DNA of 64,000 nucleotides, taken from contig JAFRSV010000014.1 in the NCBI GenBank assembly GCA_017427405.1, forward strand, positions 9,490-73,489. The letters run 5' to 3'. Within the stretch, counting starts at the first letter, position 1. Every line of letters starts with the position of its first letter. Below the pieces are notes generated by a model. It was not told the DNA's origin, ran no database searches, and saw only the letters and a program-made list of their open reading frames with translations. Shown here piece after piece: positions 5,910-38,900 of this stretch. Source of the stretch: Alphaproteobacteria bacterium. Its GTDB lineage: Bacteria; Pseudomonadota; Alphaproteobacteria; Rs-D84. The translations under genes and the position numbers were made by a program.

Positions 5910-6245
5910 TCATTCCGATAACGCACGATACAGCGCATCAGGCGTTTGTATAAACGGTGCGCGCATTTTAATTGCATCCTTGGCCATATTGACACAGGTC
6001 CAATTTTTTCGCGGGAAATTTCGTGGTAAATCACATGGCACATAAACAAAGCACCAACCATATTGCCGCAACATTTTCATATCACGTGCGCCCAGGCTAA
6101 TTTTTTCGACACGTCCATGCGATACAAATTGATAGAGTATAAATCCAGCGCGCCCACGCACGATAACCGCACAGTGCCGAAATTTTTTACAAAATATATT
6201 TGGTAAAATTTTTGAAGACTTTTGTGCAAACCCAATAATAACCAT
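5910..6245 (-). CDS. Hypothetical protein, 111 aa (possible small permuted papain/NlpC-P60-like hydrolase; weak)
   Basis: ATG preceded by AAGGA at about 8 nt. Follows the 114-aa gene by 17 nt. His-then-Cys arrangement (FRHCAVIV ... WTCVNMAKDAI). No family recognised with certainty. Confidence 0.5.
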   Translation of the reverse strand: MVIIGFAQKSSKILPNIFCKKFRHCAVIVRGRAGFILYQFVSHGRVEKISLGARDMKMLRQYGWCFVYVPCDLPRNFPRKNWTCVNMAKDAIKMRAPFIQTPDALYRALSE

Positions 6246-6262
6246 ATTAGAATCCTTTTCAT

Positions 6263-6607
6263 TTATTCAACCCAACCTTTGGCACGCGCGGCCGCATCAA
6301 TAACGCGCATCGCCGAATCCCATACGGCGGCGGCATGATTTTCGCGCCAAATATATTGATGTGGGGCGCGCCGGCGATCGCCGAATTCTTTGATGACCGC
6401 TAATTGTTCGTCATTTAATTTCCCCGACAAATAAAGTTTTGTAATCATTGTTTCAACATCAACCAATTCGCACACGCGTCGTGTTGCCGCGTTCCCACGA
6501 TATTGCCCAATATCATTACGCACAGATTTCGAATACAGAAACCAAAACCATATTTGTTCTGCACTTTGAAATTTTTCCGGTGTTATATTAACTTGTGAAT
6601 TATTCAT
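6263..6607 (-). CDS. Hypothetical protein, 114 aa
   Basis: Internal ATG (MNNSQVNIT) with a strong AAGGAGAAATTATA-ATG RBS, so the track ORF is trimmed from 6694 to 6607. No recognisable motif. Confidence 0.55.
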   Translation of the reverse strand: MNNSQVNITPEKFQSAEQIWFWFLYSKSVRNDIGQYRGNAATRRVCELVDVETMITKLYLSGKLNDEQLAVIKEFGDRRRAPHQYIWRENHAAAVWDSAMRVIDAAARAKGWVE

Positions 6608-6844
6608 TATAATTTCTCCTTTTTTTCTAATTCCTTTTAATATATAAAGACCCGATTGAGTTCGGTAAATAACTACAACCATAAATTGAAACAAAGTGTG
6701 AATTAGCGATTCGTTCAGTGGTTATAAATTTTTATCTGCGAATCGATAAACTCTTGGTTTTTTGATAAAAGGCGATGCATACGCATCGCCTCTCTCGCTT
6801 ATGGCATAATGAATTTTTTTGCTATGTCATGTTAAAATCCTTTG

Positions 6845-6872
6845 GTTAAAAAAACCGCCATGCGGCGGTTTA
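6845..6872 (-). terminator. Intrinsic terminator immediately after virB10
   Basis: On the minus strand: aaaccgcc-gcat-ggcggttt followed by TTTTTTT, about 20 nt past the virB10 stop. A second hairpin plus T-run (ggcgatgc-gtat-gcatcgcc-tttta) lies at 6760-6790. Confidence 0.65.
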
Positions 6873-6890
6873 GTTCGTTTTTTATGTGCA

Positions 6891-9317
6891 CTAAAACACA
6901 ATCGGTGGGAAACAATCACCACCCGTATTCGGACAACAATTAAACCCTTGGTCACCCATATCGGTATATGTTTCACCCGGACAGCATCCATTTGCATCCG
7001 GATTAGCACCACCATCACATGTGATAACAGATGTATTTTGTTGCGCCGGCGCGGCGGGCGTTTCTTTCTTGAACGGATTCTTTATAGTGCCATCCGCATT
7101 ATATTCAAGTCCAAGAACCTGGGTATTATATTCAACGGTATTCGCACCTGTGGTATAATCTGTTTTCTGCACACCCATTTGTTGCTGATTTTGGAACACC
7201 GCTTCTTGCCGTGCATTATTGATTGCGGTATATGTCCCAAATGAACGGCAATAGAAATCAATGGTGGCAAAACTATACTGATTACACAATGGCTGACCAG
7301 CTTTCCCAGGGTCCATTTTAGGCGTGCAAGACATATTATCGGCACAATCGCAACAATCTTTCTGAATAGAAGATTGCATCAACGAACGAACCTGGCCAAT
7401 AAGTTCTTCCATATCTGTACTTGGGGTTATTTGATTTGCGGCTGTTCTCCAATTCGCGCGGTTCTCGCCACCTGTACCATCCGCTGCCTTGGTTTGGTAT
7501 GGTCTTATTGCACACGCCTTACCCGGTTGATCGCCACACGTCACGAATAAATCAACCGGCGAAAATACGGTAATACGTGTCCCCGCGGCAATTGAAAAAG
7601 GCGGTGTTGTATTGTTCATAACATCGACCAACAATTTTGTCGCAACATTATTCCACGCGGTGATAATTTCATTTTTGGCAAGTTCCGACGAACGCACAGT
7701 TCCACTTTGAACAACGGTATTATTATCCAAATCAATCTGATTCACAAATGCATCGGACACCGGTGCAATCAAATTCACCGCCGCCGGCACAATAGCGGTC
7801 AGCATTGGCATAATAAATTGTTGCAAATAATCCGTACTGCCGTGTCCGGGGACACCCTTGCGTCCTTGGGAATCCGCCGAAAACGGACGTTGGTTATCTT
7901 TTGTAAAATTAAACTCAACCCCATCGGGACGAATAAATTGATACCATTCTATTTGCATACGACCAACGGCCTTGTATGGTCCCGGTAATTCACCCGTCAC
8001 ATACCCCAGCATCAATGTCCCCGTTGGAATAATCACTGTGCGACCGTTATCGGAATAAACATTCCTATCCACCGTTGCGCGCACCGGAAGACCATTTTTT
8101 AACATCTCTGCATCCGCTTGAACATCCGAAACAATTGTCGCCGGAATTGGTTTATATTGACGCAACACAAATGTCCTATCATACGGCATAGATGAAAATA
8201 CACCGTCACTTGCACCAGACCCAAGATACGTTTCTTCTTTGACCTTGTTCGGTGTCAACTCCAGTTTTTTCATTCCGCCCGTACCACTTGATTGCCGCTG
8301 TGCAACCAAGGCGTTCAGTTCCGCATCCGTCAATTGCCGTGCCCGATTCCCGCGATTCTTTACCGACCGCACGCCCAATGCGGGTAATTGGTCCGTAATG
8401 GTCAAACGAATATGTTCCGCATCCGACCCAATACGCCGCGCCGGATTATTTATATCCATAATATAACCCGTATCCGGATTATAAATTCCGGTCGGCGTTT
8501 TACAATTCACATCGGAAAACGGGTGATAGTAATACGCACCCCCGTCGGGCCTTATCCAACCCGCATGCACGCCAGATATATTGTATCCTGGAAAAGAAAA
8601 TTCCGAACAACCCGTCCCCGTCATAGAACCGGTGGGTGCCATGGCAACCGTTGGATCCGGCCAATCATATGTCGGCATTTGCGTATTATTAAAATCAAAT
8701 TCCGGCGAAATATCGTCCACATCTTTTTCAAAGTCATACGTTGGTTCCGGTTCAAAAATCGGGTCCGGTTCATATATTGGTTCGGGTTCCGGCGCAGGTT
8801 GTATCTTTAACGGTTCACGCGCACCAATAACAATAGTAATTGCGTTTGGTTCGTCACGTTCCACGCCCGTGGCAAAGTCCGTCCATTTAATTGCAACATC
8901 AACATTGGTAATGGTAATCGGATGTTCAGGTTCGTATTTCAACCGTATCTTGCACGGCATATCCGCATCGATAATAGTATTTTCATTTGTGCATGTTTCG
9001 GTTGCCGAAATCCCCGCGGCATCGGTCGTATCACCATCAACCACAACATTTACATCCGTCACCTGAACACGGGTATTTGCCGACACAGTATATTCAATTT
9101 CGCGCGATTCCCCAACATCCGTATCGACCCAGTCAATCGGTTCGTTTGGCGACACAATCAGTTCCGGCGTGACCGCCACCGGTGAATCAACGATTTCAAC
9201 CTTTTTTGTATCCTTGCCCCGCGTCAGCATCACGAACAACGCAACCACAACAATGATTGCCACAATAAGCAAGAACCATTGCAATCCACGTGACGAAGAA
9301 TCATTTTCCATACTCAT
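6891..9317 (-). CDS. virB10: VirB10/TrbI-family type IV secretion core protein, expanded (808 aa)
   Basis: N-terminal TM (WFLLIVAIIVVVALFVML) and a Pro-rich stretch (PAPEPEPIYEPDPIFEPEPTY). TrbI domain at about aa 380-594 (VRATVDRNVYSDNGRTVIIPTGTLMLGYV...RMQIEWYQFIRPDGVEF...AGTRITVFSPVDLFV). ATG at 9317 has AAGGGGAA upstream; the track start at 9323 is TTG. Confidence 0.85.
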   Translation of the reverse strand: MSMENDSSSRGLQWFLLIVAIIVVVALFVMLTRGKDTKKVEIVDSPVAVTPELIVSPNEPIDWVDTDVGESREIEYTVSANTRVQVTDVNVVVDGDTTDAAGISATETCTNENTIIDADMPCKIRLKYEPEHPITITNVDVAIKWTDFATGVERDEPNAITIVIGAREPLKIQPAPEPEPIYEPDPIFEPEPTYDFEKDVDDISPEFDFNNTQMPTYDWPDPTVAMAPTGSMTGTGCSEFSFPGYNISGVHAGWIRPDGGAYYYHPFSDVNCKTPTGIYNPDTGYIMDINNPARRIGSDAEHIRLTITDQLPALGVRSVKNRGNRARQLTDAELNALVAQRQSSGTGGMKKLELTPNKVKEETYLGSGASDGVFSSMPYDRTFVLRQYKPIPATIVSDVQADAEMLKNGLPVRATVDRNVYSDNGRTVIIPTGTLMLGYVTGELPGPYKAVGRMQIEWYQFIRPDGVEFNFTKDNQRPFSADSQGRKGVPGHGSTDYLQQFIMPMLTAIVPAAVNLIAPVSDAFVNQIDLDNNTVVQSGTVRSSELAKNEIITAWNNVATKLLVDVMNNTTPPFSIAAGTRITVFSPVDLFVTCGDQPGKACAIRPYQTKAADGTGGENRANWRTAANQITPSTDMEELIGQVRSLMQSSIQKDCCDCADNMSCTPKMDPGKAGQPLCNQYSFATIDFYCRSFGTYTAINNARQEAVFQNQQQMGVQKTDYTTGANTVEYNTQVLGLEYNADGTIKNPFKKETPAAPAQQNTSVITCDGGANPDANGCCPGETYTDMGDQGFNCCPNTGGDCFPPIVF

Positions 9318-9339
9318 TACCAATTCCCCTTAAAATACA

Positions 9340-10890
9340 TTACTGTATGCGAACCACCTGGCAACTGGCGCCACTGAACTTTAACAACTGGTCACACAAT
9401 TGTTGCGCGGTATCAATATCCGGCATTGGCCCAATACGCAACCGATACAAACGCGCCGCCGAAGATTTCGCCCCAAGTTCGCCAACGCCTTCTTCATCCA
9501 CGGCATAGAACACGCTGTCTTTATATTTATTCAATAAACCTTTGCCGTCATTACCACTGAACCGTGCAACCAATCCGGCCCAGTATTCATCCAACGCCTT
9601 GACACTGCTGTCGGAACGCAATTCAACGGCGACACCACCTTGGTTGCTGGTAATAAGTGGTATATTCGAATTCGGCAAATAAGACCCCGCGGTCACGCGT
9701 TCGGTTGGCATCATACTTATGCCACGTGTGCCATTGCCCAGGGCGGGCGCATCATATGTGCCATACATCATCGCCCCCGTATTCATCGGCATCGCCGGCA
9801 TGGTCGGCAACACCGCGGCATTTGGCACATTGCCAATATACGTCGGACTTGCGGTAAGGTTTTCGTACCCCGCGTTTATCGCGGTCATATTGTCGTTATA
9901 AATCATATTGTTCAGTGAATTTCCCGACATCATACTTTGTGCAACATTTGCCTCGGCCAACGCCATCACACTTGCGGTATCGGCAACCAAGAACGGTTTT
10001 GCGCGCTTTTTAATACAAACAATGCGTTGCCCACTGCGCAGAACCATATCGCCCACGGCCTCTACAATAAGCAAACGACCGTCTTGACCATCGGTGCGGA
10101 ACCCGACCGGCGATTCGCCGCCTTCGACCAACAACGACACCACGGGGCGTTGCGTCATTGAAATAACCTTGTCGCCAAAGTCAATATACGTAAACACACG
10201 GTCACGCCACACGCGTTCCGGCGCAATTACATAGTCGTCCGGATTCGGCACAAAAATATCCAAATCGAAACGGAATTCCGACGGGTCAATTTTCATCGTT
10301 TTAATCCAATCGTAATCTTCGCCATCGACACCGATGCTGGTGCTTTTTGTATTTGTGTTTTTAAATATGGAATTCATCGCCCCACCACTTGGTGCGGTTG
10401 CCGCGCCCGCCATGGGCAAACGGGCGCCCCCATCCAAAACAACATCAACCTGGGAATAGGTAATTTCGGACGCGTTCGACGGTTCACTGCGCAGATAGAA
10501 AGTATAAACATTTCCCGACTTTCCCGTCACAATCAAATTTGTATCCGACCCCATATTGTCCGGCGCGGGTGTAATGTAAAGCGTCCGCCCGCCTTGATTT
10601 CCATTAATTTGAAAGAACCCTTCGTTTCCGACAACCGCGTCTTCAATCTGTTCGCCCTTTGGCAAGTTCACCATCGTCACCATACCATTACGCAACTTTA
10701 CCGGCAACACGGTCCCCGGTTCCCACGCAAGTTGCGCGTATCCGGGTTTCAAACTGCCACTTGTCATATTTGCGTTTGGGTTATCCCACGCGGCCTGAAC
10801 ACCCCAGTTTCCGTCCAACGGCGCCGCCCACGCACCCGACACGACAACACCTGCGCAAATTGCAAATCTAAAAATCCAAAGTGCTTTCAT
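9340..10890 (-). CDS. virB9: VirB9/TrbG/CagX-family type IV secretion core protein with C-terminal SPOR-like domain
   Basis: Signal peptide (...SGAWA/AP). VirB9 N-domain (VKLRNGMVTMVNLPKGEQIEDAVVGNEGFFQI...TNLIVTGKSGNVYTFYL) and C-domain (APERVWRDRVFTYIDFGDK...VGFRTDGQDGRLLIVEAVGDMVLRSGQRIVCIKK). M/N/P-rich linker, then RLYRLRIGPMPDIDTAQQLCDQLLKFSGASCQVV. RBS AGGAAGGGA. Confidence 0.85.
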   Translation of the reverse strand: MKALWIFRFAICAGVVVSGAWAAPLDGNWGVQAAWDNPNANMTSGSLKPGYAQLAWEPGTVLPVKLRNGMVTMVNLPKGEQIEDAVVGNEGFFQINGNQGGRTLYITPAPDNMGSDTNLIVTGKSGNVYTFYLRSEPSNASEITYSQVDVVLDGGARLPMAGAATAPSGGAMNSIFKNTNTKSTSIGVDGEDYDWIKTMKIDPSEFRFDLDIFVPNPDDYVIAPERVWRDRVFTYIDFGDKVISMTQRPVVSLLVEGGESPVGFRTDGQDGRLLIVEAVGDMVLRSGQRIVCIKKRAKPFLVADTASVMALAEANVAQSMMSGNSLNNMIYNDNMTAINAGYENLTASPTYIGNVPNAAVLPTMPAMPMNTGAMMYGTYDAPALGNGTRGISMMPTERVTAGSYLPNSNIPLITSNQGGVAVELRSDSSVKALDEYWAGLVARFSGNDGKGLLNKYKDSVFYAVDEEGVGELGAKSSAARLYRLRIGPMPDIDTAQQLCDQLLKFSGASCQVVRIQ

Positions 10891-10915: not shown

Positions 10916-11623
10916 TTATTTTGATATCCAATTCAACGGATCGTTCCCGTTCAACACCGTGTATTCCCTGACTTTCAATCCCAACGGATTATTAAGGCGT
11001 TCGATCCAATCAATAATCCTGTCGTTATCCTTGGCCAAAACAACACGAATCTTATAGTCCTTTTTATTTGTCGGCCCGCTGTTTGATTCACAATAATATC
11101 GTATCGTCACGGTATATGTGTCTTCCTTTAATACCAATGGCGCACCAATAAATGTGACGGGGCATGTAAACGCAAAATCCGGATAGTCACCAATAATTGC
11201 GTTATACATATCGGTCTGGGTGAATGCCTTGTAAACCGCGGGCGTGGACCACATTGCAACAACGCCACCATCATTACCCCACTTGCGCCGCATAATTGAA
11301 GTATTGCGTTCCACTTCGTTCCGGGCGCGGACATATTCCATGACGAACGCCTTTTTATATTCGTCCACGTTTTCATCACTTGCCGGCAATTCAGTAATTT
11401 GAATACTTGATGAATTTGCGGGCTTGGTCGTGATAAAGAAAATTTCGGGTCGATTTAATGGAAACATTTTCCCCAGTGTCATAAACAATACAAACACCAC
11501 CACCGCCATTCCGGCGAATACAAATACAACCAATCTGGACAACAAAACAGGCGGTTCTATGCGGTGTTGCAAGGTTCCTCTCCTAAACGTTTTTTTTGAT
11601 TGTAGAAAAAATCTTGCAACCAA
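10916..11623 (-). CDS. virB8: VirB8-family type IV secretion protein
   Basis: A single N-terminal TM, then a periplasmic domain with the VirB8-like layout (VDEYKKAFVMEYVRARNEV ... NPLGLKVREYTV). The start is uncertain: TTG at 11623, or TTG at 11572 preceded by AGGAGAGG. Confidence 0.8.
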   Translation of the reverse strand: MVARFFLQSKKTFRRGTLQHRIEPPVLLSRLVVFVFAGMAVVVFVLFMTLGKMFPLNRPEIFFITTKPANSSSIQITELPASDENVDEYKKAFVMEYVRARNEVERNTSIMRRKWGNDGGVVAMWSTPAVYKAFTQTDMYNAIIGDYPDFAFTCPVTFIGAPLVLKEDTYTVTIRYYCESNSGPTNKKDYKIRVVLAKDNDRIIDWIERLNNPLGLKVREYTVLNGNDPLNWISK

Positions 11624-11923: not shown

Positions 11924-14900
11924 ATGAAGTTTTTAACGTCGAGAGTAGTTGTTTTTGCGTTGATGTCGTTTTTGGTGTCGTTTGTGGCGCATGCCGAAGA
12001 CAAGGTTGTTGGTGATGGTGGCAAGACGGGCGATACGGGGGAAGTCGTGAAATCGGGTTCGACGCCGGCAATAGATTACAAGGTTGTCACATCCAAGGCA
12101 TATGTTGATGATGAAATCTCTAAGCTTGCCGCACACAAGGTTAATGGTGTTGCGATATCAAATGAAAACATCCAATTTTATGCAGTAGAAACTGCCAGAA
12201 ACAGTGGGGCTTCTGCAACAAAAACAGTTCAACTTAGTGGCGGGGACATGGATTCTGATGCTACAACCATACCGACGGGAATGATGCTTGTTATTAAGCC
12301 GGCTGAGACATCAACTGTTGTGCCAACAACGTTAAAGCTGAAAAGGACTAGTTCCGATACTACGGGAATATCTAAATCGTTACGTTACAACGGTGCGGCA
12401 ATTACAACCGATATGGCGGGCAAAGTGTGGAATGCGAACACCCCATCTATTTGGGTGTATGATGGAACGTATTGGGATTTTGCCGGTGGTGGCACGGTTG
12501 CGGACGGCCTGATTGATGGCCTTGCGTCACATACCGTAAATGGCGCGCCACTATCGAATTTGGCGAGTGTGTTTTTTGGACCCGGGGAGGGTTCTGATGG
12601 CGCCGACAAAAAGGTAACGATCGATTCTATTGCTTCAACGGAGGGGGGGGTGCCACCGACGGGATTAATAATTGTGACTCAACCAACCGACTCGGATAGT
12701 CATGGTAATTTTGCTCTTACTTTAAACCGTTTTAACAAAGCACCTGTGTTTTATAACGGCGCGCCTGTCAACGACAGAGATGCATCCGCAATATGGAGTA
12801 TTAAAAAGCCGTCTTCGTTTGTGTTTGATGGCACAAATTGGGTGTTTTTAGGAACTGTTGATACTGATACCAACACCGAGTATAGCACCATGTCTGTTGA
12901 CGAAGGAACCGCTGGGCAATCGCAAACGCAACGAGTATTGACGGCACAAAACCTTAAACCGATAATCCAGGGCACAACATTGACAGGTCTTAGTACAAGT
13001 ACTGCTAGTGTAATAACTACATCCGACACGGTAACAACTGGTATGGGTAAGTTACAGGCTCAAATTACGGCTAATGATGTTAGGACACATACGGTAAACG
13101 GTGCACCGTTATCAAATACAGCAAGTTATTTTTATGGCACAGGTGTCGGTGTTCCCGATAATGCTGCCAAAACAGTAGAGATAGACTCTATTTATTCCGT
13201 AATCGGTCAAACAACACCGAATGGACAAATGATTGTTGTTCAACCAGAGAAAACGGCAACGAAAGGTAATATCACATTACAGTTAAACAAGTTCAATGCT
13301 GCGCCAGTGTATTATAACGGAGACGTCTTGAATGATGACGATGTGTCAAAAGTCTGGAATAAGGGGTATCCATCGACATTTGTGTTTGATGGAACGAATT
13401 GGGTTTTTATGGGTAACGGACAATTCGATACTGATACCAATACCGAGTATAGCACCATGTCTGTTAACGAAGGAACCGCTGGGCAATCGCAAACGCAACG
13501 AACATTGACGGCACAAAACCTTAAACCGATAATCCAGGGCACAACATTGACTGGTGTTGACACAACGGCGACAACGGCGGTAACGGCATCGGATACGGTC
13601 ACAACCGGCATCGGAAAACTTCAAGGACAGATAAATGATTTATCGTCACATAAAATAAACGGTATGCCGCTTTCGGGCTTTACATCGAATGGCGATGCGA
13701 TGACCAGTATGTATTTTTATGGGACATCGGATGCGGCGGCGGCCGACGAAGTAAGGAATGTGACCATTGGCGGCATAACCGAACTTGCACCGGGGTTGAT
13801 GATTATTGTGAAACCAACGATAACCGCCGCGTACGGAAATGCGGATGCGGCGGCGGCGGCCAAATTGAACCTGAACGGTCTTGGTGCCAAGGGTATGCGG
13901 TATAATGGTGCCGCACTTACCACCACCAATGATGGATATGCGTGGAAGGCGAATACCCCGGGTTTATGGTTGTATGATGGGACATATTGGAATTTTGCCG
14001 GTTATGACGCAAATAACACATATAACGCTATGACCGATGGTGCCAGTGGTTCGTATAGTGGCCCGGCTGGGACAGCCACCACAAACACGGTGGTCAGTCC
14101 AAAGGTTTTAAAGAACACCGTTCTTGACGGTATAACCCTTACCGCGAATACCGGTCGGACGGCATTTGATAGCACAATCGCGAACACCCCAATTACCGCA
14201 AGTGATAAGGTAATAGAGGCATTTGGTCATGCCCAAGGACAAATTAATAACAAACAGAACAAGATTGATGCAACATGGATAGAAGTTTCGACATTAGATA
14301 ATAGTGACATATGGCAACTGCGTGGGATTGCCGCATCAAATAACGCCGCGACTGATATTAACGCCACCGAAATTGGTCTTATGACAAATAATGATGTATA
14401 TGCGATATTGTCATATAATAACGAGGGGCACGGTTTGGTTGATGCAAATTATGATTTTTTCCAGAGTATCGGTCAAACCGGTCGCTATGAAGAATTGGAA
14501 AATCTTGTTCCAACTGTTGCCGCGGTTGGTGAAGCGTTTGGTGAACTTCGTGCTTTTTCGTGGGATTCCACAAAACACCCCGTGGCGATTGACGCATACA
14601 GCACGACGTTCAGTAACAGTGCAACGAACGCATGGCCGGTGATGAACGAAACCAAGGCCCCAAGTGGCAGTGTCCTTGCCAACGCATTGGCATTAAAGCA
14701 AAATAAAATTGCCGCCGGCACTGCGGGTAATGTTGTGACATATAGCGGTACCGCGGGGCAATTTGGTACACCGCTTAGTATAATGGATGGTCTTAGTTCC
14801 TATGGCGAAGTTGCGGTACTTGATAATGCATATAATTTTGGGGATCCAGAAACATCACAAACCACTGTTTGGCCATTGGCAGAGGCAACCCAATTAATAA

Positions 14901-17900
14901 ATGGTCGCGCCTTTGCTGACGGTTTATCTTTGAAGCAAACTGTGTTACCGGTTACCAGCAATGGAATGGGCAACGGACCAAACTATGTTTACAATGCAAC
15001 GACAAACCCGACAGCGGACGGATCCGTTGTCACCACAACAACGACCGCCGGCACCGTGGGTCAGCGCGGTATTGCGACGGCACCAACGTATGATGCAAAT
15101 GATAATTTAACCAATGGTTCGTGGTTACCGACGATGAGTGCGGTTGAAAGCATGGTATCTGGGTCCGATGTTTCATCGCACAAGGTCAATGGCGCACCAT
15201 TATCAAATACGGCATCGTACTTTTATGGCGAAGGTGTTGGTGCGGCGGACACGGCAACCAAGACGGTTAGCATACCGTCAATAACCGGCACGCCCGCGGT
15301 TGGCCAGGTTATTGTTGTCAAACCGGCAACAACGAATACATCGTCAACAATAAATATAAATTTAAACAATACGGCGGCATACAGTGTTTTGTATAGGGGC
15401 AGTTCTAGCAATATCCCAAAGGATGTTTGGACGGCATATGTTCCATCGATATTTGTTCTTGATGAAACCAGTGGTGGAACAAAATATTGGCGGTATGTCG
15501 GAACTTCGCCGTCGTCGATGGCATGGGGGGCGACCGAAACCAATGCAACAAACGCATATAGTACGACATTTGACGGCACAACAAACAATTGGCCGGTGGC
15601 GGATGAAAATAAATACGTCAAGGGTGATTCATTTGCCCAAGGTTTGGCATTAAAACAAAATAGAATCACAACTAATTTGGTGTCGTTTAATGATACGCCA
15701 AATGGTGCAACATATAATGTTCCGGCACTTGTATCATATGGAACGGGTACAAATAATGCTGATGGGATACTTGGCAACAAAATCGGTATAGTGGGTTATG
15801 GAAATATTGGCGAAGATCTTGCAGATTATGAAGAAGTTGGAATGGATAATTATGTTCCGACCGTTTACGCCGTGGCAGCGGCTTTATCCGCCATTTGGGA
15901 GGGTATGCCATCACAATGGCAGGCGCTTTCTTGGAATGTGAACGGTGACAATGGTGCCAATCGCACAAATGCAATCAATGCATATAATACAACATTTGGA
16001 ACCGGCACAAACAATTGGGCGGGAACCAACACAAATTTGATAAATGGGCAATTTTTGGCAAATTCCCTTGCGCTGAAACAAAATAAAATCCCGGCGGGAA
16101 CAACCCCCGAAAATTTATACACGAACGGCAGTGTATTAACATATACCAATTCTGATGGGGTCGTTGGTGAAAAACATATTATAAATGGTCAAATGTTTGA
16201 GGATCTTGTTGGAGGTCGTGAAAACTGGACGAATGATTATCAAAATATGCTTGTAAATGCCGGTGATATCGGAACAATGTTGAAAAGGCTTGATTGGTCC
16301 AGTACCCAAAGCGCCGCAATCAATGCATATAACACAACATTTGGAACCGGTACAAATAATTGGACGGGAAATGACGGTAATTTAATAAACGGTCAATTTT
16401 TGGCAAATTCCCTTGCCCTGAAACAAAATAAAATTCCTGCCGGCACTGCGGGGGAAATCTTGACGTATAGTGGCACCGCGGGACAGCTTGGAACGCCATG
16501 GGCGGTTTTGTCTAGTTTGACTGGTGAGGATGGAGATGCAATAGAAAACTATAGCACAACGTTTAATGGCACAGATGGCAATTGGACAACAGGTTCCGCG
16601 GGTAAATTGATTACTACGAATGTCTTGGCGGATGGGTTAGCATTGAAACAAACAAGAATCTCAACCGGATTGGTGGAGTTTGAAGGAAATGAAGGTAATT
16701 ATCAATTGCCCGCAATCGTTAGAACGGATGCCTTGGGGGACTTATTAGATGGAACAAGTCTTGGTATATTTAATTTTGCAACATATCAGGCAGAAGATGC
16801 GTATCAAGCTTTAGCCGGGTATGCCGAAGGTGCTACCGCAGCCCAACTTGATAATTTCGTACCTACACTTCGTGTGGTGGCAGAAGAACTTAAAGCGATT
16901 GAAAGTAAACAAAACAAACTCCCAGCTGCATATGCAAGTACAACAGATCCCAGTAAAATGGCATCAATGGGTGGGGAAACGATTGCTTTGGGATCGTACG
17001 CGGGGAGCGTGAGTCAGCGTTATATCACCGCGGGTGGGTCACAACCACTTACCCAAAAAACTGGGGCAGATAATGTGATGTTATATATCAATGGAACAAA
17101 AACATTAGCCCAATTCCAAACATCGAACTTTGGTGCGACCGGCGGGACAGCAACCACCATTCAGGGGAGAATCAAAGAATCGTTGGTTAATTTGGAAACA
17201 TTGAAAGATGTGTATAGTGAATTACAAGAAAGTATTGAAAGTTCCGATGTTTCATCGCACAAGGTCAATGGCGCACCATTATCAAATACGGCATCATACT
17301 TTTACGGCGAAGGTGTTGGGGAGGCGGACACGTCAACCAAAACGGTCAGCATCCCATCAATAACCGGCACCCCCGCCGTTGGCCAGGTTATTATTGTCAA
17401 ACCGGCGACAACGAATACCGCATCAACGATAAAGATAAATTTAAACAATACGGCGGCATACAGTGTTTTATACAGGGGCAGCACAACCAATATCCCATCA
17501 GAGGCATGGACGGCATATGTTCCGTCGATATTTGTCCTTGATGAAACCAGTGGTGGAACAAAATATTGGCGGTATGTCGGAACTTCGCCGTCGTCGATGG
17601 CATGGGGGGCGACCGAAACCAATGCAACAAACGCATATAGTACGACATTTGACGGCACAACAAACAATTGGCCAACGGCGGATGAAAATAAATACGTCAA
17701 GGCTGATTCACTTGCGTATGGTTTGGCGTTAAAACAAAACGCTTTGCCGGCCCAGGCATCGGGTGCCCCGGTCACAATTCCGACATACCCGGCATATGGT
17801 ACATCTGATGGGGTGATTGGTAAAATGTATCTTGATACATCATCGCTTTATACGGCAAATGATGAACATTTCCCATCATCAAAATTGATTCGTACAACAC

Positions 17901-19279
17901 TTTCATCGTATGTGCCAAAGTCGTATGTACTTAATACCAATGATACAAATTCTTATTTGGCCGATGATAACAGCGCGCCATCATGGGCAACAACAAACGG
18001 CGTGGCAAGTTTATATCGTGTTCCGGGCGCGGCAAGTGGTTCAAATTGGGCCGCCACGGCCATGTCAAAGTGGGCCAATGATGAAAATGTTCCAACAATG
18101 GATACTTTGGCAAATTCACTTGCGGGACTTTATGATGCGGTTGGTGTTTCGGTTGAAGATCGAATTCTGAACTACGATGAAACCGGTTATAGTATTGTGG
18201 GTGAAAGTGTTCCCGTTCCGTCCCAGATTGAATATACCGGTGAATTAAAACTTAAAGATGGTAATCAATTGTTCTGGCTGCCACAATTGCAAAATGCGGG
18301 TGTGGAAGAAGCAACGAGATTACTGAAATCTTATTCGATGGACAAAATCGTCCCCAGTATGGATGAATTGGCATTTGCGTTGGATGGTGTTTTACAAACA
18401 CATGAAACCACCAGAGAATGGCAAGAAGTCGTGAATTTTTACAGGGTTCCATCAAGCTCTCTCTTTGAAGTTGCAAAGGAAATAGAGGCCTCTGAAGTTA
18501 ATGCAGTAGCGCTTTACAAAAGTGGTTATTTGCAAACCTTTGCCCCAAGTTTAGAGGCATTGATGAACGAATCCGCCGAGCTTGTACGACTTATAAACAG
18601 CAAACAAAACAAATTATCCGGTACCAGTGGCAACCTTATCACGTATGGCGCAACCGCGGGCACAACCGGGTCCAAGGAAATTGCAACCACCATAACAAAC
18701 AATGCCAACACGGTGCCAAATACACAGGCAGTTTACAATGCCGTAAATGCACGACAAAATGTAATACCGGTCGCTGGTAAATATCGTTCGTCAAACACGG
18801 CAACAAGTGACACACCCATATCTGATTGGACCGTCACAGATATCAAGGGGACCGCACTGGTGACCAAACCAACATCTTCGGATGGTGTTGTTGGCGAACG
18901 CAAGATTTTCGAGGCGGGTGACACATACACAGACGATACTAAAACAAATATACAAATTGCAACAATTGGTGCGGTTATGGAAAACACGTTTACAAAAACA
19001 TGTGTTGAATACGCCCCTGGGTCAACACAAAATGACACCACATGTTGGCTGTGGCAACTTACAAGCAACACCGTCACGTCAACGAGATGTAGCGCGAGTG
19101 GTGTAAGTTGCCGTTCAAGTACCGAATGTTGCAGTGGAATCTGTAGATCAGAGGTTTGTGCCGCCACACTTATCGCTTGCGGGGGCGAAGGATCATCATG
19201 TTCACTGATTGCTTGCTGCGATGGGTTGACCTGTGACAGCAGTAGCAATACATGTGTTAGAGAGGCTGGCCGTACATGA
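11924..19279 (+). CDS. Giant secreted repeat protein (2451 aa), tail-fibre-like modules, Cys-rich C-terminal cap
   Basis: Uninterrupted 7.36-kb ORF with RBS GGAAGGGA and signal peptide MKFLTSRVVVFALMSFLVSFVAHA/ED. Recurrent SHK/TVNGAPLSN, VPT-x3-V-x3-L and LALKQNK motifs. All Cys that I could see fall in the last ~95 aa. Confidence 0.85.
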   Translation: MKFLTSRVVVFALMSFLVSFVAHAEDKVVGDGGKTGDTGEVVKSGSTPAIDYKVVTSKAYVDDEISKLAAHKVNGVAISNENIQFYAVETARNSGASATKTVQLSGGDMDSDATTIPTGMMLVIKPAETSTVVPTTLKLKRTSSDTTGISKSLRYNGAAITTDMAGKVWNANTPSIWVYDGTYWDFAGGGTVADGLIDGLASHTVNGAPLSNLASVFFGPGEGSDGADKKVTIDSIASTEGGVPPTGLIIVTQPTDSDSHGNFALTLNRFNKAPVFYNGAPVNDRDASAIWSIKKPSSFVFDGTNWVFLGTVDTDTNTEYSTMSVDEGTAGQSQTQRVLTAQNLKPIIQGTTLTGLSTSTASVITTSDTVTTGMGKLQAQITANDVRTHTVNGAPLSNTASYFYGTGVGVPDNAAKTVEIDSIYSVIGQTTPNGQMIVVQPEKTATKGNITLQLNKFNAAPVYYNGDVLNDDDVSKVWNKGYPSTFVFDGTNWVFMGNGQFDTDTNTEYSTMSVNEGTAGQSQTQRTLTAQNLKPIIQGTTLTGVDTTATTAVTASDTVTTGIGKLQGQINDLSSHKINGMPLSGFTSNGDAMTSMYFYGTSDAAAADEVRNVTIGGITELAPGLMIIVKPTITAAYGNADAAAAAKLNLNGLGAKGMRYNGAALTTTNDGYAWKANTPGLWLYDGTYWNFAGYDANNTYNAMTDGASGSYSGPAGTATTNTVVSPKVLKNTVLDGITLTANTGRTAFDSTIANTPITASDKVIEAFGHAQGQINNKQNKIDATWIEVSTLDNSDIWQLRGIAASNNAATDINATEIGLMTNNDVYAILSYNNEGHGLVDANYDFFQSIGQTGRYEELENLVPTVAAVGEAFGELRAFSWDSTKHPVAIDAYSTTFSNSATNAWPVMNETKAPSGSVLANALALKQNKIAAGTAGNVVTYSGTAGQFGTPLSIMDGLSSYGEVAVLDNAYNFGDPETSQTTVWPLAEATQLINGRAFADGLSLKQTVLPVTSNGMGNGPNYVYNATTNPTADGSVVTTTTTAGTVGQRGIATAPTYDANDNLTNGSWLPTMSAVESMVSGSDVSSHKVNGAPLSNTASYFYGEGVGAADTATKTVSIPSITGTPAVGQVIVVKPATTNTSSTININLNNTAAYSVLYRGSSSNIPKDVWTAYVPSIFVLDETSGGTKYWRYVGTSPSSMAWGATETNATNAYSTTFDGTTNNWPVADENKYVKGDSFAQGLALKQNRITTNLVSFNDTPNGATYNVPALVSYGTGTNNADGILGNKIGIVGYGNIGEDLADYEEVGMDNYVPTVYAVAAALSAIWEGMPSQWQALSWNVNGDNGANRTNAINAYNTTFGTGTNNWAGTNTNLINGQFLANSLALKQNKIPAGTTPENLYTNGSVLTYTNSDGVVGEKHIINGQMFEDLVGGRENWTNDYQNMLVNAGDIGTMLKRLDWSSTQSAAINAYNTTFGTGTNNWTGNDGNLINGQFLANSLALKQNKIPAGTAGEILTYSGTAGQLGTPWAVLSSLTGEDGDAIENYSTTFNGTDGNWTTGSAGKLITTNVLADGLALKQTRISTGLVEFEGNEGNYQLPAIVRTDALGDLLDGTSLGIFNFATYQAEDAYQALAGYAEGATAAQLDNFVPTLRVVAEELKAIESKQNKLPAAYASTTDPSKMASMGGETIALGSYAGSVSQRYITAGGSQPLTQKTGADNVMLYINGTKTLAQFQTSNFGATGGTATTIQGRIKESLVNLETLKDVYSELQESIESSDVSSHKVNGAPLSNTASYFYGEGVGEADTSTKTVSIPSITGTPAVGQVIIVKPATTNTASTIKINLNNTAAYSVLYRGSTTNIPSEAWTAYVPSIFVLDETSGGTKYWRYVGTSPSSMAWGATETNATNAYSTTFDGTTNNWPTADENKYVKADSLAYGLALKQNALPAQASGAPVTIPTYPAYGTSDGVIGKMYLDTSSLYTANDEHFPSSKLIRTTLSSYVPKSYVLNTNDTNSYLADDNSAPSWATTNGVASLYRVPGAASGSNWAATAMSKWANDENVPTMDTLANSLAGLYDAVGVSVEDRILNYDETGYSIVGESVPVPSQIEYTGELKLKDGNQLFWLPQLQNAGVEEATRLLKSYSMDKIVPSMDELAFALDGVLQTHETTREWQEVVNFYRVPSSSLFEVAKEIEASEVNAVALYKSGYLQTFAPSLEALMNESAELVRLINSKQNKLSGTSGNLITYGATAGTTGSKEIATTITNNANTVPNTQAVYNAVNARQNVIPVAGKYRSSNTATSDTPISDWTVTDIKGTALVTKPTSSDGVVGERKIFEAGDTYTDDTKTNIQIATIGAVMENTFTKTCVEYAPGSTQNDTTCWLWQLTSNTVTSTRCSASGVSCRSSTECCSGICRSEVCAATLIACGGEGSSCSLIACCDGLTCDSSSNTCVREAGRT

Positions 19280-35962: not shown

Positions 35963-38900
35963 ATGAAACGACTTGCTATATTTATTGGTGGACTGCTTGT
36001 AATGCCCGCATTTGCTGAGGTTGCACCCGTTTTCATCGACGAAAACGATGCGATTGAATATGCGGACGGCATGTACGATGAAAACGGTTTTTTTGTCGCG
36101 CCCGAGGAAATTGTTGAAACGGAAACCGAAGCGGACACGCAAAAAGTGCAGACGCCGGTAAAAATTTCGCGCGCACCCGTGAACGCAACACCGGTCGCGA
36201 ACCGAACGACCACAACGCGTGCAATGCCCGCATCGGCGGGCGCGACGACGGCGTCGGGTCGCGGGTCGGCAAATGGAAATTCATCGCGTGTTGTTGCGGC
36301 ACGAACAACAACCGCAACGCCACGCGCAACCGCATCGCGTACGGTCGCATCACGTGGAACGACGGCCACATCACCGCGTGCGGGCGCGACATCAACACGA
36401 ACCGCAACATCAACGGCGGCAACCCGCGCGGCGGCGGCAAGGACAACCGGCGGCGCAACACGTGCAACATCGGCGGCCACGGGTGCAACCGTTGCGCGGA
36501 CGGCGACATCTACTGGACGGACGACCGCGGCACGCACCGCGACGGCAACAACCGCGCGTGCGGCAACGGCATCGGGGCGTTTGTCGGTGGATCCAAATCG
36601 TAATGTTGGTACGGCACTAAAAAATGCGACTATTACTGCGGCAAATGGTACGGTCACATTGAATGATTCGGGTGGTACGCTTTACAACAAATCTGCATCA
36701 ATTCGTCGGACGCCAACAATTCGTATGTCATCATTGAACGGAATATCGGCGGAAACGACGGCGGTTTCCACCATGTCATTGGAAGATATGGACGACCTGG
36801 CGGAACTTACGGATTATTGCAAGGCGCAGTATGCAAACTGTATGGATAATTATTGCAATGTCTTGGATGATAACCAGGGCCGGTGCAGTTGCAGTGCGAA
36901 TTTGAAAAATTATGCGCGGGCCGAGGCGGCATTAAAAACCGCGACCGAAGAATTACAAGATGTCGCGCAAAAAATCCAATACATCGGCCTTACCACGCGT
37001 GAGGTTGAAACCCTGTTCACGGAAACGATTGCCGAAGAAACAATGCGCACCAAGGGTACGGACACCAGCCAACTTCAGGCGAGTTTGAACAAGATAAAAG
37101 ATATGATTATCGATGTGAAATCCGGCACCGCCACCAGCAGCGCCAGCAACGATATCCTGGGGTTAAACTTTGACCTTTCGGGGTTGCTTGAATTTTCCTT
37201 TGACAGCACCGGTTTCGACCTGGGCTCGCTCTTTGGCACCACAAACACGAACAGTGTTAGCAATCAACGCGGCGAAGAACTTTATAAAACCGCGGCGGCG
37301 CGTTGCAAATCATCGGTGTTAAAGGCATGCACGGCGCGCGGTGTTGACGCGTCACTTGTCACGAACGCGTACGATTTGGAAATCGACCGCGAATGCATGG
37401 CATATGAACGCAGTTTGAATGATTCTAACGACCAAATGTTGGCGACGGTTCGGAACGCGAAAAACGTTTTGCAAAAGGCGCGCCTTATGGTTGCGCAACA
37501 AAAGAACGCATACGACATGCGCGGTTGTATAAATGCGTTGGATGCCTGTATGCAGGATGAATTTGTCTGTGGTTCGGATTATGAAAATTGCCTTGACCCG
37601 ACGGGCCGTTATATCGTGAACGGTGAAATCGTGGTGGGCAGCCAACCCGGCCATGCCATCGACCCGGAAAGCCAATCGCGTGTGGCAAGTGTGATGACCA
37701 GTGACGTTTGCCGTGTGAACCTCTATCGGACATGGGATATGCCGGGTGAAACATGCCGTGCGCATAGTGGTAGTCCCGCGGCGAATTATGAATCTTATCC
37801 AACTGATTATCAGGGCAACGCCTGGGGCAGTGGCACCGAAGACACATTGTCGAAATACATTGAAAAAACTGTGATCGGTAATTACCCGGCCAAGACCAGT
37901 GAAAATATGTCACTGTATCTGCAAAACAAAATTGGGTATAATCAAAAAGACCGCAATTATGGTATGTGCATGTCGGTCCTTAACAAGTGCCAGGATTACA
38001 CATACACCCGCGGCACTGGCACATCCGCACAATACGAACCCGCGAACCAGGTTGTTCAACAATACCTTGCGCGCGTTTTGGTTCAGATCAAGGCGAAACA
38101 GGATGAAATCTTGGCCAACTATGCCGAAACATGCGTTAGTGACGTCACATCGTGCCTGGGGCAGAACGGTTATCCAACCGAAGATCCATCCGAATGGGAT
38201 TACAGTTCCACATATGGATACAGCACGTATACAACAAAAATGAATATCGCGGTCAACGCGTGCCGTGCACAAATCGTCACATGTATGTCGGTGAACGGAT
38301 ATTCAATCGAGACACCAACACCAACGGAAATGAATTGTTGGGTTCAGGGATTGTTATATAGTACATCCACAGACAAATGTATGCCTAATAACCTTAAACA
38401 AGATTGTGCCGATGGCCAAAAACTATGCAATGGGGAGTGCATAGATGAGAGTGAAATTTGCGAACAGCCGGTTCAGCAATATTATGTATCGTTGGAGTGT
38501 GGAAATGGGTGTAATGGGTCGAAAACCGTAAACGGTACTTTCGACCAAGGTTCGTCTGTCACTGTGCCATCGTGTGGCACAATTCAAAAACCGAATGTGA
38601 CGTGGACTTGTTCGGTTCCGTCCGGTTTAAGCATCAGTGGCGGAGCAACCATAACCGTGACAAACAAGATAACATGTTCCGCAACGTGTGACAGCAATCC
38701 TACGCCACCAACGCCCCAAGAATATGTGGTAAATATAAATTGCGGTTCTAACGGACAGTTTGTTTCAAAAACTGGTACTACCCCAGGTGGTAACGATTGT
38801 TCTTCCACGCAGTGTGGTACAGTAACGTTTACAGACGATTGCATAAATTTAAACGAGTATTGCAGCATAGATGGGGGGGAACAGCAGTATCAATGGAATT

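What the first reader, a model, noticed from the sequence alone, without database searches (positions are those of the whole stretch)
6894..7541. VirB10 homologue has a 216-aa, 14-cysteine C-terminal extension beyond the TrbI barrel
The TrbI/VirB10 domain ends at AGTRITVFSPVDLFV (about aa 594). Canonical VirB10 proteins stop within a few residues of this point. Here 216 more residues follow, with 14 Cys by my count. They include vicinal pairs and clusters: CCDCADNMSC, and a terminal CDGGANPDANGCCPGETYTDMGDQGFNCCPNTGGDCFPPIVF. In solved core complexes, VirB10 contributes the outer-membrane-spanning helical antenna. A disulfide-rich appendix could therefore be periplasmic, or conceivably surface-exposed. 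The CC-containing tail echoes the Cys cap of the neighbouring giant protein.
Basis: partly seen in the sequence, partly recalled or inferred. Interest (0 to 1): 0.62.

Follow-up and report, generated by a model that had tools for sequence, protein, structure and literature searches.

The report
Cysteine-rich tail on gut-bacterium VirB10
A secretion-machine protein (VirB10) of an uncultured, tiny-genome gut bacterium carries a real, conserved 216-residue cysteine-rich tail. The tail ends in a previously undescribed 42-residue six-cysteine mini-domain that many other exported proteins of the same lineage also carry.

Summary
ORF 6891..9323 (minus strand) encodes a VirB10/TrbI protein whose barrel ends at aa 594. 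After it come 216 residues with 14 Cys (window 6894..7541).

The tail is not an artefact or a separate gene. Four independent metagenome runs assemble it identically, and 117 full-length homologues (46-94% identity) from Candidatus Enterousia / order Rs-D84 gut MAGs keep it in frame. Five canonical VirB10/ComB10 proteins end 0-22 residues after the barrel.

The tail has three parts:
- a Cys-clamped loop;
- a VirB10-specific helical region holding a mosaic cassette in four allelic classes;
- a terminal mini-domain, C-x10-CC-x14-CC-x6-C-FPPI, with dN = 0 among close strains.

The tail Cys count is always even (10, 12 or 14), which argues for disulfides outside the cytoplasm. The mini-domain also ends about 75-aa membrane-anchored miniproteins, secreted proteins with 1-3 copies, and a roughly 700-aa bitopic family. 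It matches no Pfam, NCBIfam or PDB entry.

Most likely it is a disulfide-knotted docking or anchoring module displayed 14 times around the T4SS outer-membrane core. This function is inferred, not shown. The supposed echo of the giant neighbour's Cys cap is not homology.

Verdict: new variant of a known kind.

The parts
   Evidence: Homologues are 795-855 aa with 95-100% coverage.
9219..9290 (-). N-terminal transmembrane helix (aa about 12-35)
   Evidence: AF2 helix 10-33 in 808-aa numbering; hydrophobic run WFLLIVAIIVVVALFVML.
8808..9170 (-). Extra Ig-like beta-sandwich domain (aa about 52-172) with invariant Cys111-Cys124
   Evidence: AF2 pLDDT 80-86. Foldseek matches Siglec-like SrpA/Hsa and PapD-like domains at E 1e-5 to 6e-4. 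The Cys are invariant in 117 sequences.
8616..8807 (-). Pro-rich spacer (PAPEPEPIYEPDPIFEPEP...), typical of VirB10/TonB-like proteins
   Evidence: Sequence; AF2 disordered over 173-234; weak TonB hit.
8418..8600 (-). Second extra beta domain (aa about 242-302) with invariant Cys239-Cys274
   Evidence: AF2 pLDDT 84-88; 72-75% column conservation and invariant Cys.
7542..8186 (-). TrbI/VirB10 barrel with two-helix antenna (aa 380-594)
   Evidence: Pfam PF03743 and NCBIfam VirB10/ComB10 domain hits. Foldseek matches TrwE, CagY, Xanthomonas VirB10, TraF and ComB10 at E 2e-8 to 2e-4. AF2 helices 495-528 and 543-569. dN/dS 0.05-0.12.
6894..7541 (-). The 216-aa Cys-rich tail (aa 595-810)
7509..7541 (-). 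Cys596-x7-Cys604 loop directly after the barrel; both Cys invariant
7179..7418 (-). VirB10-specific helical region (aa about 636-715), including invariant GQVRS and the YCRS (Cys692) motifs
   Evidence: AF2 helices 51-70, 98-110 and 114-133 of the tail model. This region is found only in VirB10-length proteins or their fragments.
7254..7373 (-). Mosaic cassette (aa about 651-690). The window carries the 5-Cys 'CCDC' allele.
   Evidence: Four allelic classes with 5, 3, 1 or 1 Cys occur at every backbone-divergence level. dN is 0.8-1.3 with saturated dS between strains whose N-terminal dS is about 0.13.
6894..7019 (-). Terminal six-Cys mini-domain C769-x10-CC-x14-CC-x6-C804-FPPIVF
   Evidence: dN = 0 at dS about 0.2. 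AF2 pLDDT 83-91 with a beta-hairpin. Shared with many non-VirB10 exported proteins. No Pfam, NCBIfam or PDB match.
9340..10890 (-). virB9 (516 aa): CagX domain plus a roughly 220-aa extension ending in a SPOR-like domain
10916..11623 (-). virB8 (start codon uncertain)
   Evidence: Pfam VirB8, E 1.6e-10; synteny.
6263..6607 (-). Conserved 114-aa ORF directly downstream of virB10, in no known family
   Evidence: 70% identical to the syntenic ORF of L031; no Pfam or NCBIfam hit.

Best explanation
SHOWN. The tail is a genuine, vertically inherited part of the chromosomal VirB10 of Candidatus Enterousia (Alphaproteobacteria, order Rs-D84). These are animal-gut bacteria with genomes under 1 Mb and a partner-dependent lifestyle. 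The tail is modular:
(i) a Cys596-Cys604 loop;
(ii) a VirB10-specific helical region in which invariant Cys692 faces a swappable cassette carrying 1, 1, 3 or 5 Cys;
(iii) a P/A/Q-rich linker;
(iv) a 42-residue six-Cys mini-domain under extreme purifying selection, which also ends many other exported proteins of the lineage.

INFERRED. All tail cysteines form intramolecular disulfides outside the cytoplasm. Because the tail leaves the periplasmic VirB10 barrel, and VirB10 is 14-fold in solved core complexes, about 14 tails would hang from the O-layer of the T4SS core. The terminal mini-domain would act as a small knotted docking or anchoring module. It would bind a common envelope ligand, or other module-bearing proteins, and so staple the core complex into the envelope. 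That is the kind of job VirB7-type accessory subunits do elsewhere, and it parallels the SPOR-type peptidoglycan-binding end on the neighbouring VirB9. The allelic cassette would tune or diversify an interaction surface.
For: Real and fused:
- Contigs from four independent runs are identical across 6000-10000.
- 117 full-length homologues and 26 genome loci keep the tail in frame.
- 'Tail-only' proteins are contig-edge or N-gap artefacts.
- Synteny virB8-virB9-virB10 between rpoB/nusG and yidC is conserved.

Atypical: canonical proteins end 0-22 aa after the barrel.

Disulfide and extracytoplasmic:
- Tail Cys counts are 10, 12 or 14 and never odd in 117 sequences. Each cassette class plus Cys692 gives an even number.
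- Every other periplasmic Cys of the protein is an invariant pair.
- Other signal-peptide ORFs of the window are also Cys-rich.

Module:
- dN = 0 and confident AF2 hairpin.
- The spacing 10/14/6 occurs in 97 of 164 copies, and 144 of 164 lie within 5 aa of a C-terminus.
- 100 of 138 small carriers have a hydrophobic N-terminus, meaning a signal peptide or membrane anchor.
- Carriers include IM-anchored miniproteins, a lipoprotein-like protein, secreted proteins with 1-3 copies, and a roughly 700-aa bitopic family whose Pro/Glu-rich periplasmic spacer gives it a TonB-like layout.

Envelope-anchoring theme: VirB9 carries a conserved SPOR-like end.
Against: - No binding partner, ligand or localisation was tested, so the function is inference from architecture.
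- No fold or sequence relative is known: Foldseek best E is 3.4 and PDB profile searches return nothing.
- Only virB8, virB9 and virB10 are in the window. I could not show that the genome has VirB4, VirB11, VirD4, VirB2 or a VirB7.
- Published analysis says Rs-D84 lacks respiratory chains (PMC12306168). That raises the question of how a DsbB-type oxidase would be re-oxidised; no Dsb gene was looked for genome-wide.
- A mosaic cassette is more usual in surface-exposed than in periplasmic segments.
- AF2 confidence for the middle of the tail is only 50-88 and pTM is 0.32.
Confidence: 0.45

Rival explanations
1. Surface-exposed recognition or adhesion element. The tail, or at least its cassette, reaches the cell surface and contacts partner or prey cells, host immunity or phages. 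The allelic cassette would provide antigenic or specificity variation, as proposed for the repeat region of CagY.
For: Four cassette classes persist across backbone identities of 50-95%. Both dN and dS are saturated between otherwise near-identical strains, which indicates recombinational allele exchange. The lineage is predicted to depend on other cells (PMC12306168). The N-terminal extra domain resembles Siglec-like adhesin folds.
Against: By established structural knowledge (pKM101 3JQO, R388, Xanthomonas complexes hit), the VirB10 barrel from which the tail emerges lies under the outer membrane. The same terminal module sits on about 75-aa inner-membrane-anchored miniproteins whose linkers of about 10-20 aa cannot reach the surface. 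A clearly periplasmic linker of the same protein (aa 331-379) is also mosaic.
Confidence: 0.25
2. The cysteines coordinate metal (Zn or Fe-S) or stay reduced rather than forming disulfides. The tail would be a metal-binding or redox-sensing appendix suited to a strictly anaerobic, non-respiring gut bacterium.
For: Vicinal CC pairs and many Asp, Asn and Gly around them. Rs-D84 genomes lack respiratory chains. No Dsb gene lies in the window.
Against: Strict even parity of Cys number across three cassette sizes is what pairwise bonding predicts, not metal sites. Invariant isolated Cys pairs occur in the Ig-like and beta domains and in the VirB9 SPOR domain. There are no His or other typical co-ligands in the invariant columns.
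Confidence: 0.1
3. The terminal module is a C-terminal sorting or attachment tag, for example recognised by an export or sorting machine, or cross-linked to peptidoglycan through its last residue, rather than a binding domain.
For: 144 of 164 copies lie within 5 residues of the C-terminus. 89 of 169 non-VirB10 carriers end in Lys or Arg (...CFPPIK), reminiscent of the C-terminal Lys of Braun's lipoprotein (the Lpp analogy is from my own knowledge).
Against: Internal tandem copies exist, for example P0128 with three and P0142 and P0146 with two. VirB10 tails end in L, F, M or Y in 117 of 134 cases, not Lys. A compact disulfide-knotted fold is unlike known C-terminal sorting signals.
Confidence: 0.12
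4. The tail is an assembly or annotation artefact, or a separate gene product fused by mis-assembly or a frameshift.
For: Some database entries are tail-only proteins of 130-200 aa beginning with Met.
Against: Those entries start 46 nt from a contig edge with the reading frame continuing upstream, or follow a run of 10 N in a scaffold. Four independent runs give identical contigs without joints. 117 homologues and 26 loci keep one ORF. Purifying selection acts on the tail in frame.
Confidence: 0.02

Closest known systems
Canonical VirB10 / TraF(pKM101) / TrwE(R388) / ComB10
   Same: N-terminal TM helix, Pro-rich spacer, and a TrbI beta-barrel with a two-helix antenna. The gene follows virB8-virB9. 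Structural matches have E 2e-8 to 2e-4.
   Different: The canonical proteins are about 370-460 aa and stop 0-22 aa after the barrel. This one is 808 aa, with two extra N-terminal beta domains and a 216-aa Cys-rich tail. Sequence similarity is low: it scores below the NCBIfam equivalog cut-offs, and PDB phmmer E-values are only about 1e-5.
Helicobacter pylori CagY (Cag7)
   Same: A VirB10 homologue greatly enlarged by lineage-specific regions. From my own knowledge, its middle repeat region contains conserved Cys and is remodelled by recombination, which modulates T4SS function. The Enterousia tail also holds a Cys-containing, recombining cassette.
   Different: CagY's additions lie N-terminal to the VirB10 domain, which ends the protein; here the addition is C-terminal. 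There is no sequence similarity outside the barrel.
Lineage-specific extensions of other core subunits in Xanthomonas X-T4SS (VirB7 N0 domain, VirB8 AQGP tail)
   Same: A chromosomal T4SS whose core subunits carry C-terminal extensions that are absent from conjugative homologues and of unknown or accessory-ring function (PMC6536674).
   Different: Different subunits (VirB7 and VirB8, not VirB10), different composition (not Cys-rich), and no homology.
TonB-type layout (IM anchor, Pro-rich spacer, small C-terminal docking domain)
   Same: The roughly 700-aa module-bearing family and VirB10 itself share this layout. The module sits where TonB has its receptor-docking domain.
   Different: The module has no similarity to the TonB C-terminal domain. 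Energy coupling was not tested.
Granulin / other CC-ladder mini-proteins
   Same: Short beta-hairpins stapled by vicinal CC pairs. Human granulin C appears in the Foldseek list.
   Different: The match is not significant (E 7, 26 columns). The spacing differs, with no sequence similarity. This is a lead only.

Membership tests
VirB10/TrbI (PF03743) | TrbI beta-barrel domain scoring above the family threshold | tested here: met
   Pfam 58.9 bits against a cut-off of 35, aa 387-587. NCBIfam VirB10 and ComB10 domain models hit at E 8.5e-17 and 2.8e-14, but below their equivalog cut-offs.
VirB10/TrbI (PF03743) | Fold match to solved VirB10 C-terminal domains, including the antenna helices | tested here: met
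   Foldseek matches 8rt6/7o3j TrwE, 6x6k/6odi CagY, 6gyb, 3jqo TraF and 2bhv ComB10 at E 2e-8 to 2e-4. AF2 helices 495-528 and 543-569 have low monomer pLDDT.
VirB10/TrbI (PF03743) | Bitopic topology: N-terminal TM helix followed by a Pro-rich periplasmic spacer | tested here: met
VirB10/TrbI (PF03743) | Encoded next to virB8 and virB9 | tested here: met
Complete type IVA secretion system | Presence of VirB4 (and VirB11/VirD4) ATPases, VirB6, VirB3, and the pilins VirB2/VirB5 | not testable with these tools
   None is in the 64-kb window. Whole genomes of the lineage could not be scanned here.
Known Cys-rich or C-terminal domain families (Pfam-A, NCBIfam) | Profile match to the tail or to the 42-aa module | tested here: not met
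   No family at E <= 0.01 (Pfam) or <= 0.1 (NCBIfam) for the tail, a 75-aa carrier or a 3-copy carrier. The roughly 700-aa carriers have no Pfam domain.
Granulin / knottin folds | Significant structural or sequence match and matching Cys spacing | tested here: not met
   Foldseek best E is 3.4 and granulin C has E 7. The PDB profile search of the module returns 0 hits at E <= 10.
Same domain as the giant neighbour's Cys cap | Sequence similarity or the same Cys spacing | tested here: not met
   Spacing differs: C-x6-C-x5-CC-x3-C-x4-C twice, against C-x10-CC-x14-CC-x6-C. BLASTP gives no alignment over the Cys regions.
Disulfide-bonded extracytoplasmic domain | Even Cys number conserved through indels and allele swaps; location after an export signal | tested here: met
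   117 of 117 sequences have an even count (10, 12 or 14). Carriers have signal peptides or anchors. The bonds themselves were not observed.

The most novel reading that the evidence does not exclude
The six-Cys module is a lineage-specific envelope 'address' or docking domain. It gathers a defined set of proteins into one cell-contact organelle: the VirB10 ring, a TonB-like 700-aa bitopic protein, lipoproteins, and secreted and anchored miniproteins. Through this organelle, these sub-1-Mb gut Alphaproteobacteria would attach to and exploit partner cells. The recombining cassette in the VirB10 tail would set partner specificity or evade phages and immunity. This would be a new principle for building accessory layers onto a T4SS core.
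Probability: 0.15. Interest if true: 0.8.

Novelty: new variant of a known kind. Interest (0 to 1): 0.55.

Why it matters
VirB10 is the subunit that spans both membranes and gates type IV secretion. All solved systems end it at the barrel, so a conserved, disulfide-rich, partly hypervariable C-terminal appendage is an unexplored way of elaborating the core complex.

It occurs in Candidatus Enterousia / Rs-D84, an abundant but uncultured gut lineage of ruminants, horses, birds and termites. This lineage has genomes under 1 Mb and is predicted to live off other cells. The published genome descriptions I could search do not mention a T4SS. A strongly conserved chromosomal virB8-9-10 locus with unusual extensions is therefore a concrete candidate for the partner-contact machinery.

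The 42-residue module defines a new small domain family: about 190 clusters at 50% identity in 1.84 billion representatives. It would merit a Pfam entry, and it is small enough for direct structural and binding studies.

Tried and rejected
- Foldseek of the tail model against the PDB gave nothing significant: best E 3.4, granulin C at E 7.
- PDB profile searches with the tail (A1) and module (A2) alignments gave 0 hits for the module and only hits at E > 1 for the tail.
- Pfam and NCBIfam scans of the tail, the module carriers and the roughly 700-aa family gave no family.
- Homology between the tail and the giant protein's Cys cap was rejected.
- 'Tail-only' database proteins as evidence of a separate gene were rejected. 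They are contig-edge truncations or an N-gap.
- I looked for further module copies in the window and in the ±10-kb flanks of 26 orthologous loci. The only copy found was in virB10.
- I looked for T4SS genes next to module-bearing miniproteins, the 3-copy protein and the 700-aa family. The contexts are housekeeping: recN/uvrD, lolCDE-like/ftsQA and gcrA/acpS.
- RNA evidence is inconclusive. Metatranscriptome contigs from related strains cover parts of the tail at low depth, but none spans the barrel-tail junction.
- The profile search of the 5.8-billion-protein index with the module returned only short proteins, from 85 candidates. It could not be used to count architectures.
- No other T4SS gene is in the window.
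Full report
**1. What is there**

ORF 6891..9323 on the minus strand translates to 810 residues counted from the first TTG. The likely real start is the ATG at 9317, preceded by AAGGGG, which gives 808 aa.

Pfam finds one domain, TrbI/VirB10 (PF03743), at aa 387-587 with E 8e-16. The motif AGTRITVFSPVDLFV ends at aa 594. Exactly 216 residues follow, spanning window 6894..7541, and they contain 14 of the protein's 18 cysteines. Cys is 6.5% of the tail against 1.25% in 29 other window ORFs, with binomial P = 8e-7.

**2. Organism and locus**

The gene is preceded on the same strand by virB8 (10916..11623) and virB9 (9340..10890). It sits among housekeeping genes: recR, ksgA, kefB, lspA and yidC on one side, and tRNA-Trp, nusG, rplKAJL and rpoBC on the other.

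Relatives in GTDB genomes are MAGs named Candidatus Enterousia or 'Alphaproteobacteria bacterium', from rumen, other animal guts and a termite. The genus is placed in order Rs-D84. Its members have genomes under 1 Mb, no respiratory chain and a predicted partner-dependent lifestyle. That paper does not mention secretion systems (PMC12306168).

In a 59%-identical species the same order holds: secE-nusG-rpl-rpoB | virB8-virB9-virB10-114-aa ORF | yidC-lspA-kefB-ksgA-recR. The locus is therefore an old, vertically inherited chromosomal feature, not a plasmid or island. The giant 2451-aa ORF next door is absent from that relative.

**3. Is the gene model right?**

- Logan contigs from four independent DNA runs cover 6000-10000 with zero differences and no joints.
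- A search of 5.8 billion proteins gave 893 hits. The best 120 are nearly all 795-855 aa and cover 95-100% of the query, down to 46% identity.
- In an alignment of 117 full-length homologues the tail is present in all of them.
- 25 genome loci end with the same module and a stop codon.
- Short 'tail-only' database proteins turned out to be artefacts. P0124 starts 46 nt from a contig edge with the frame open upstream. P0127 follows a run of ten N in a scaffold.
- Codon-level analysis shows purifying selection in frame along the tail.
- Metatranscriptome contigs of related strains touch the tail but do not span the junction.

The DNA-level rival is refuted. Post-translational cleavage remains untested.

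**4. Is the extension atypical?**

I ran tblastn with the barrel (aa 380-600) against 72,556 plasmids. It hit 411 records, and 322 of them cover at least 80% of the query. In five taxonomically spread hits the annotated CDS ends shortly after the position aligned to aa 594-600:

| Protein source | Residues after the barrel |
|---|---|
| Agrobacterium | 15 |
| Acinetobacter | 0 |
| Campylobacter ComB10 | about 15 |
| Xanthomonas | 20 |
| Bartonella | about 22 |

The ComB10 crystal construct likewise ends 15 residues after the aligned barrel. A 216-residue tail is therefore well outside the canonical range. The protein also has two extra N-terminal domains (see section 8).

**5. Anatomy of the tail**

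Conservation, the AF2 model of aa 588-810 (mean pLDDT 71) and dN/dS divide the tail into these parts:

- (a) aa 595-605: an invariant Cys596-x7-Cys604 loop.
- (b) aa 606-635: a variable linker.
- (c) aa 636-715: helices carrying the invariant GQVRS and F-Y-C692-R-S motifs. They flank a cassette at about aa 651-690.
- (d) aa 716-765: a Q-rich and then P/A-rich linker, with a conserved YN-x-QVLGL-x-Y-x-x-DG-x-I-x-NPF motif.
- (e) aa 769-810: C-x10-CC-x14-CC-x6-C-FPPIVF. This part has pLDDT 83-91 and a small beta-hairpin.

The module has dN = 0 at dS of about 0.2 among close strains. The barrel has dN/dS of 0.05-0.12.

The cassette differs sharply. Its dN is 0.8-1.3 and its dS is saturated, between strains whose N-terminal dS is only about 0.13. 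That is the signature of allele replacement by recombination.

The cassette falls into four classes: CC with 5 Cys (the window's allele), CC with 3 Cys, WC with 1 Cys, and F/YC with 1 Cys. All four classes occur among proteins at least 80%, 60-80% and 50-60% identical in backbone.

**6. Cysteine parity**

Across 117 homologues the tail has 10, 12 or 14 Cys (69, 21 and 27 proteins) and never an odd number. The cassette region aa 640-695, which includes Cys692, has 2, 4 or 6. The four Cys upstream of the barrel are two invariant pairs.

This parity is what obligatory pairwise disulfide bonding predicts. It places the tail outside the cytoplasm, as expected for anything that follows the periplasmic barrel. 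Other signal-peptide ORFs of the window are also Cys-rich: 48 Cys in 35963..40300 and 30 in 40492..42324.

**7. The terminal module is a shared domain**

I ran phmmer with the tail alone against 1.84 billion representatives. It gave 190 hits at E <= 1e-3.

The whole tail aligns only to VirB10-length proteins and their fragments; a TrbI HMM confirms this, with tails of 185-215 aa and 8-12 Cys.

The last roughly 45 residues also match many other proteins:

- about 75-aa proteins made of one TM helix plus the module;
- a lipoprotein-like 129-aa protein;
- signal-peptide proteins of 170-280 aa with a Cys-paired helical hairpin and one to three modules;
- a family of about 600-850 aa with no TrbI domain. 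It has a conserved cytoplasmic N-domain, a coiled coil, a TM helix near aa 500, a Pro/Glu-rich periplasmic spacer, the motif SKPAYNVSQNEKMFVA and the module.

Of 164 module copies, 97 have the exact 10/14/6 spacing and 144 end within 5 residues of the C-terminus. 100 of 138 small carriers have a hydrophobic N-terminus. Their genes lie in housekeeping contexts of the same kind of genomes, not next to T4SS genes.

No Pfam, NCBIfam or PDB entry matches the module or the tail. The window holds only the VirB10 copy.

**8. The rest of the machine**

The full-length AF2 model (pLDDT 60.7) shows the following:

- a TM helix;
- an Ig-like sandwich at about aa 52-172, pLDDT above 80;
- a disordered Pro-rich spacer;
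- a second beta domain at about aa 242-302, pLDDT about 85;
- the barrel with two long antenna helices;
- the tail.

Foldseek matches the barrel to TrwE, CagY, Xanthomonas VirB10, TraF and ComB10 (E 2e-8 to 2e-4). It matches the Ig-like domain to Siglec-like adhesin and PapD-like domains.

VirB9 is also enlarged, at 516 aa. Its last 40 residues hit SPOR, a peptidoglycan-binding domain, at 22.3 bits against a cut-off of 21. The extension is conserved in 24 orthologues, as are Cys499 and Cys510 and an unpaired Cys292 at the end of the CagX domain.

**9. Interpretation**

Shown: a real, conserved, modular, Cys-paired C-terminal extension of VirB10. Its terminal module is a lineage-wide domain of exported proteins, and its middle is an allelic cassette.

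Inferred:
- The cysteines are disulfide-bonded.
- About 14 tails hang from the O-layer. This rests on established knowledge of 14-fold VirB10 rings in the pKM101, R388 and Xanthomonas cores.
- The module docks to a common envelope ligand or to other module-bearing proteins, anchoring or decorating the core complex. This is analogous in role, not in ancestry, to VirB7-type accessory rings, and it parallels the SPOR end of VirB9.

I put 0.45 on this composite.

The main rival is surface exposure with a recognition or variation role (0.25). The mosaic cassette and the organism's lifestyle favour it. The periplasmic position of the barrel, and the presence of the module on short inner-membrane-anchored miniproteins, disfavour it. 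Metal binding (0.10) and a sorting or cross-linking tag (0.12) are less likely. An artefact is excluded (0.02).

**10. Comparison and novelty**

The protein passes the tests for VirB10 family membership: domain, fold, topology and synteny. Whether a full T4SS exists could not be tested.

The closest analogue in spirit is CagY, an enlarged VirB10 with Cys-containing recombining repeats. Its additions are N-terminal and unrelated in sequence. Xanthomonas X-T4SSs show that core subunits can carry lineage-specific C-terminal extensions, but on VirB7 and VirB8 (PMC6536674).

I found no paper describing a C-terminally extended VirB10 or this module. The verdict is a new variant of a known kind, containing a new small domain family. 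Interest is 0.55. It is unusual and testable, and possibly central to how a widespread uncultured gut lineage contacts other cells, but its function is not established.

Noticed in passing
window 9340..10890 (-): VirB9 is 516 aa, about 220 aa longer than usual, and ends in a SPOR-like peptidoglycan-binding domain (Pfam 22.3 bits against a cut-off of 21). The extension, a Cys499/Cys510 pair and an unpaired invariant Cys292 at the end of the CagX domain are conserved in 24 orthologues. The odd Cys recalls the VirB9-VirB7 intermolecular disulfide of Agrobacterium (that comparison is from my own knowledge).
   Followed up: partly
window 11924..19279 (+): This giant 2451-aa ORF has a signal peptide, T/A/G/S/N-rich composition and no Pfam or NCBIfam hit. 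All 14 of its Cys lie in the last 92 residues as two knottin-like C-x6-C-x5-CC-x3-C-x4-C repeats. It is strain-specific: a 59%-identical relative has a 296-aa ORF at this position.
   Followed up: partly
window 35963..40300 (+) and 40492..42324 (+): Two further signal-peptide ORFs (1445 aa with 48 Cys; 610 aa with 30 Cys) have no Pfam domain. The first lies in a stretch of raised G+C (0.53 against about 0.45). Exported proteins of this organism seem generally Cys-rich.
   Followed up: no
window 6263..6607 (-): A 114-aa ORF directly downstream of virB10 is 70% identical in a distant congener and syntenic there. It has no TM segment and no known family, and may belong to the operon.
   Followed up: partly
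window 8808..9170 and 8418..8600 (-): VirB10 also has two extra periplasmic beta domains N-terminal to the barrel, each with an invariant Cys pair. The first is Ig-like and gives Foldseek matches to the Siglec-like sialoglycan-binding domains of streptococcal adhesins SrpA and Hsa (E about 1e-5).
   Followed up: partly
window 8187..8333 (-), aa 331-379: The linker between the second beta domain and the barrel is also mosaic between close strains: dN 0.15-0.24 and dS 0.65-0.78, where flanking regions have dS 0.1-0.2. Recombination therefore affects more than the tail cassette.
   Followed up: no
L038 133..2373; L039 8653..10812 (other genomes): A family of about 600-850 aa ends in the same six-Cys module. 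It has a conserved cytoplasmic N-domain, a coiled coil, a TM helix and a Pro/Glu-rich periplasmic spacer, and has no Pfam domain. It is encoded next to gcrA and acpS.
   Followed up: partly
proteins P0121-P0310 (other genomes): Non-VirB10 module carriers mostly end in Lys or Arg (...CFPPIK; 89 of 169). VirB10 tails end in L, F, M or Y (117 of 134). The meaning of this split is unknown.
   Followed up: no
window 47377..48909 (+): This ORF matches the Pom family (Protochlamydia outer membrane protein, PF17251, E 1.5e-11), an unusual porin type for an alphaproteobacterium.
   Followed up: no
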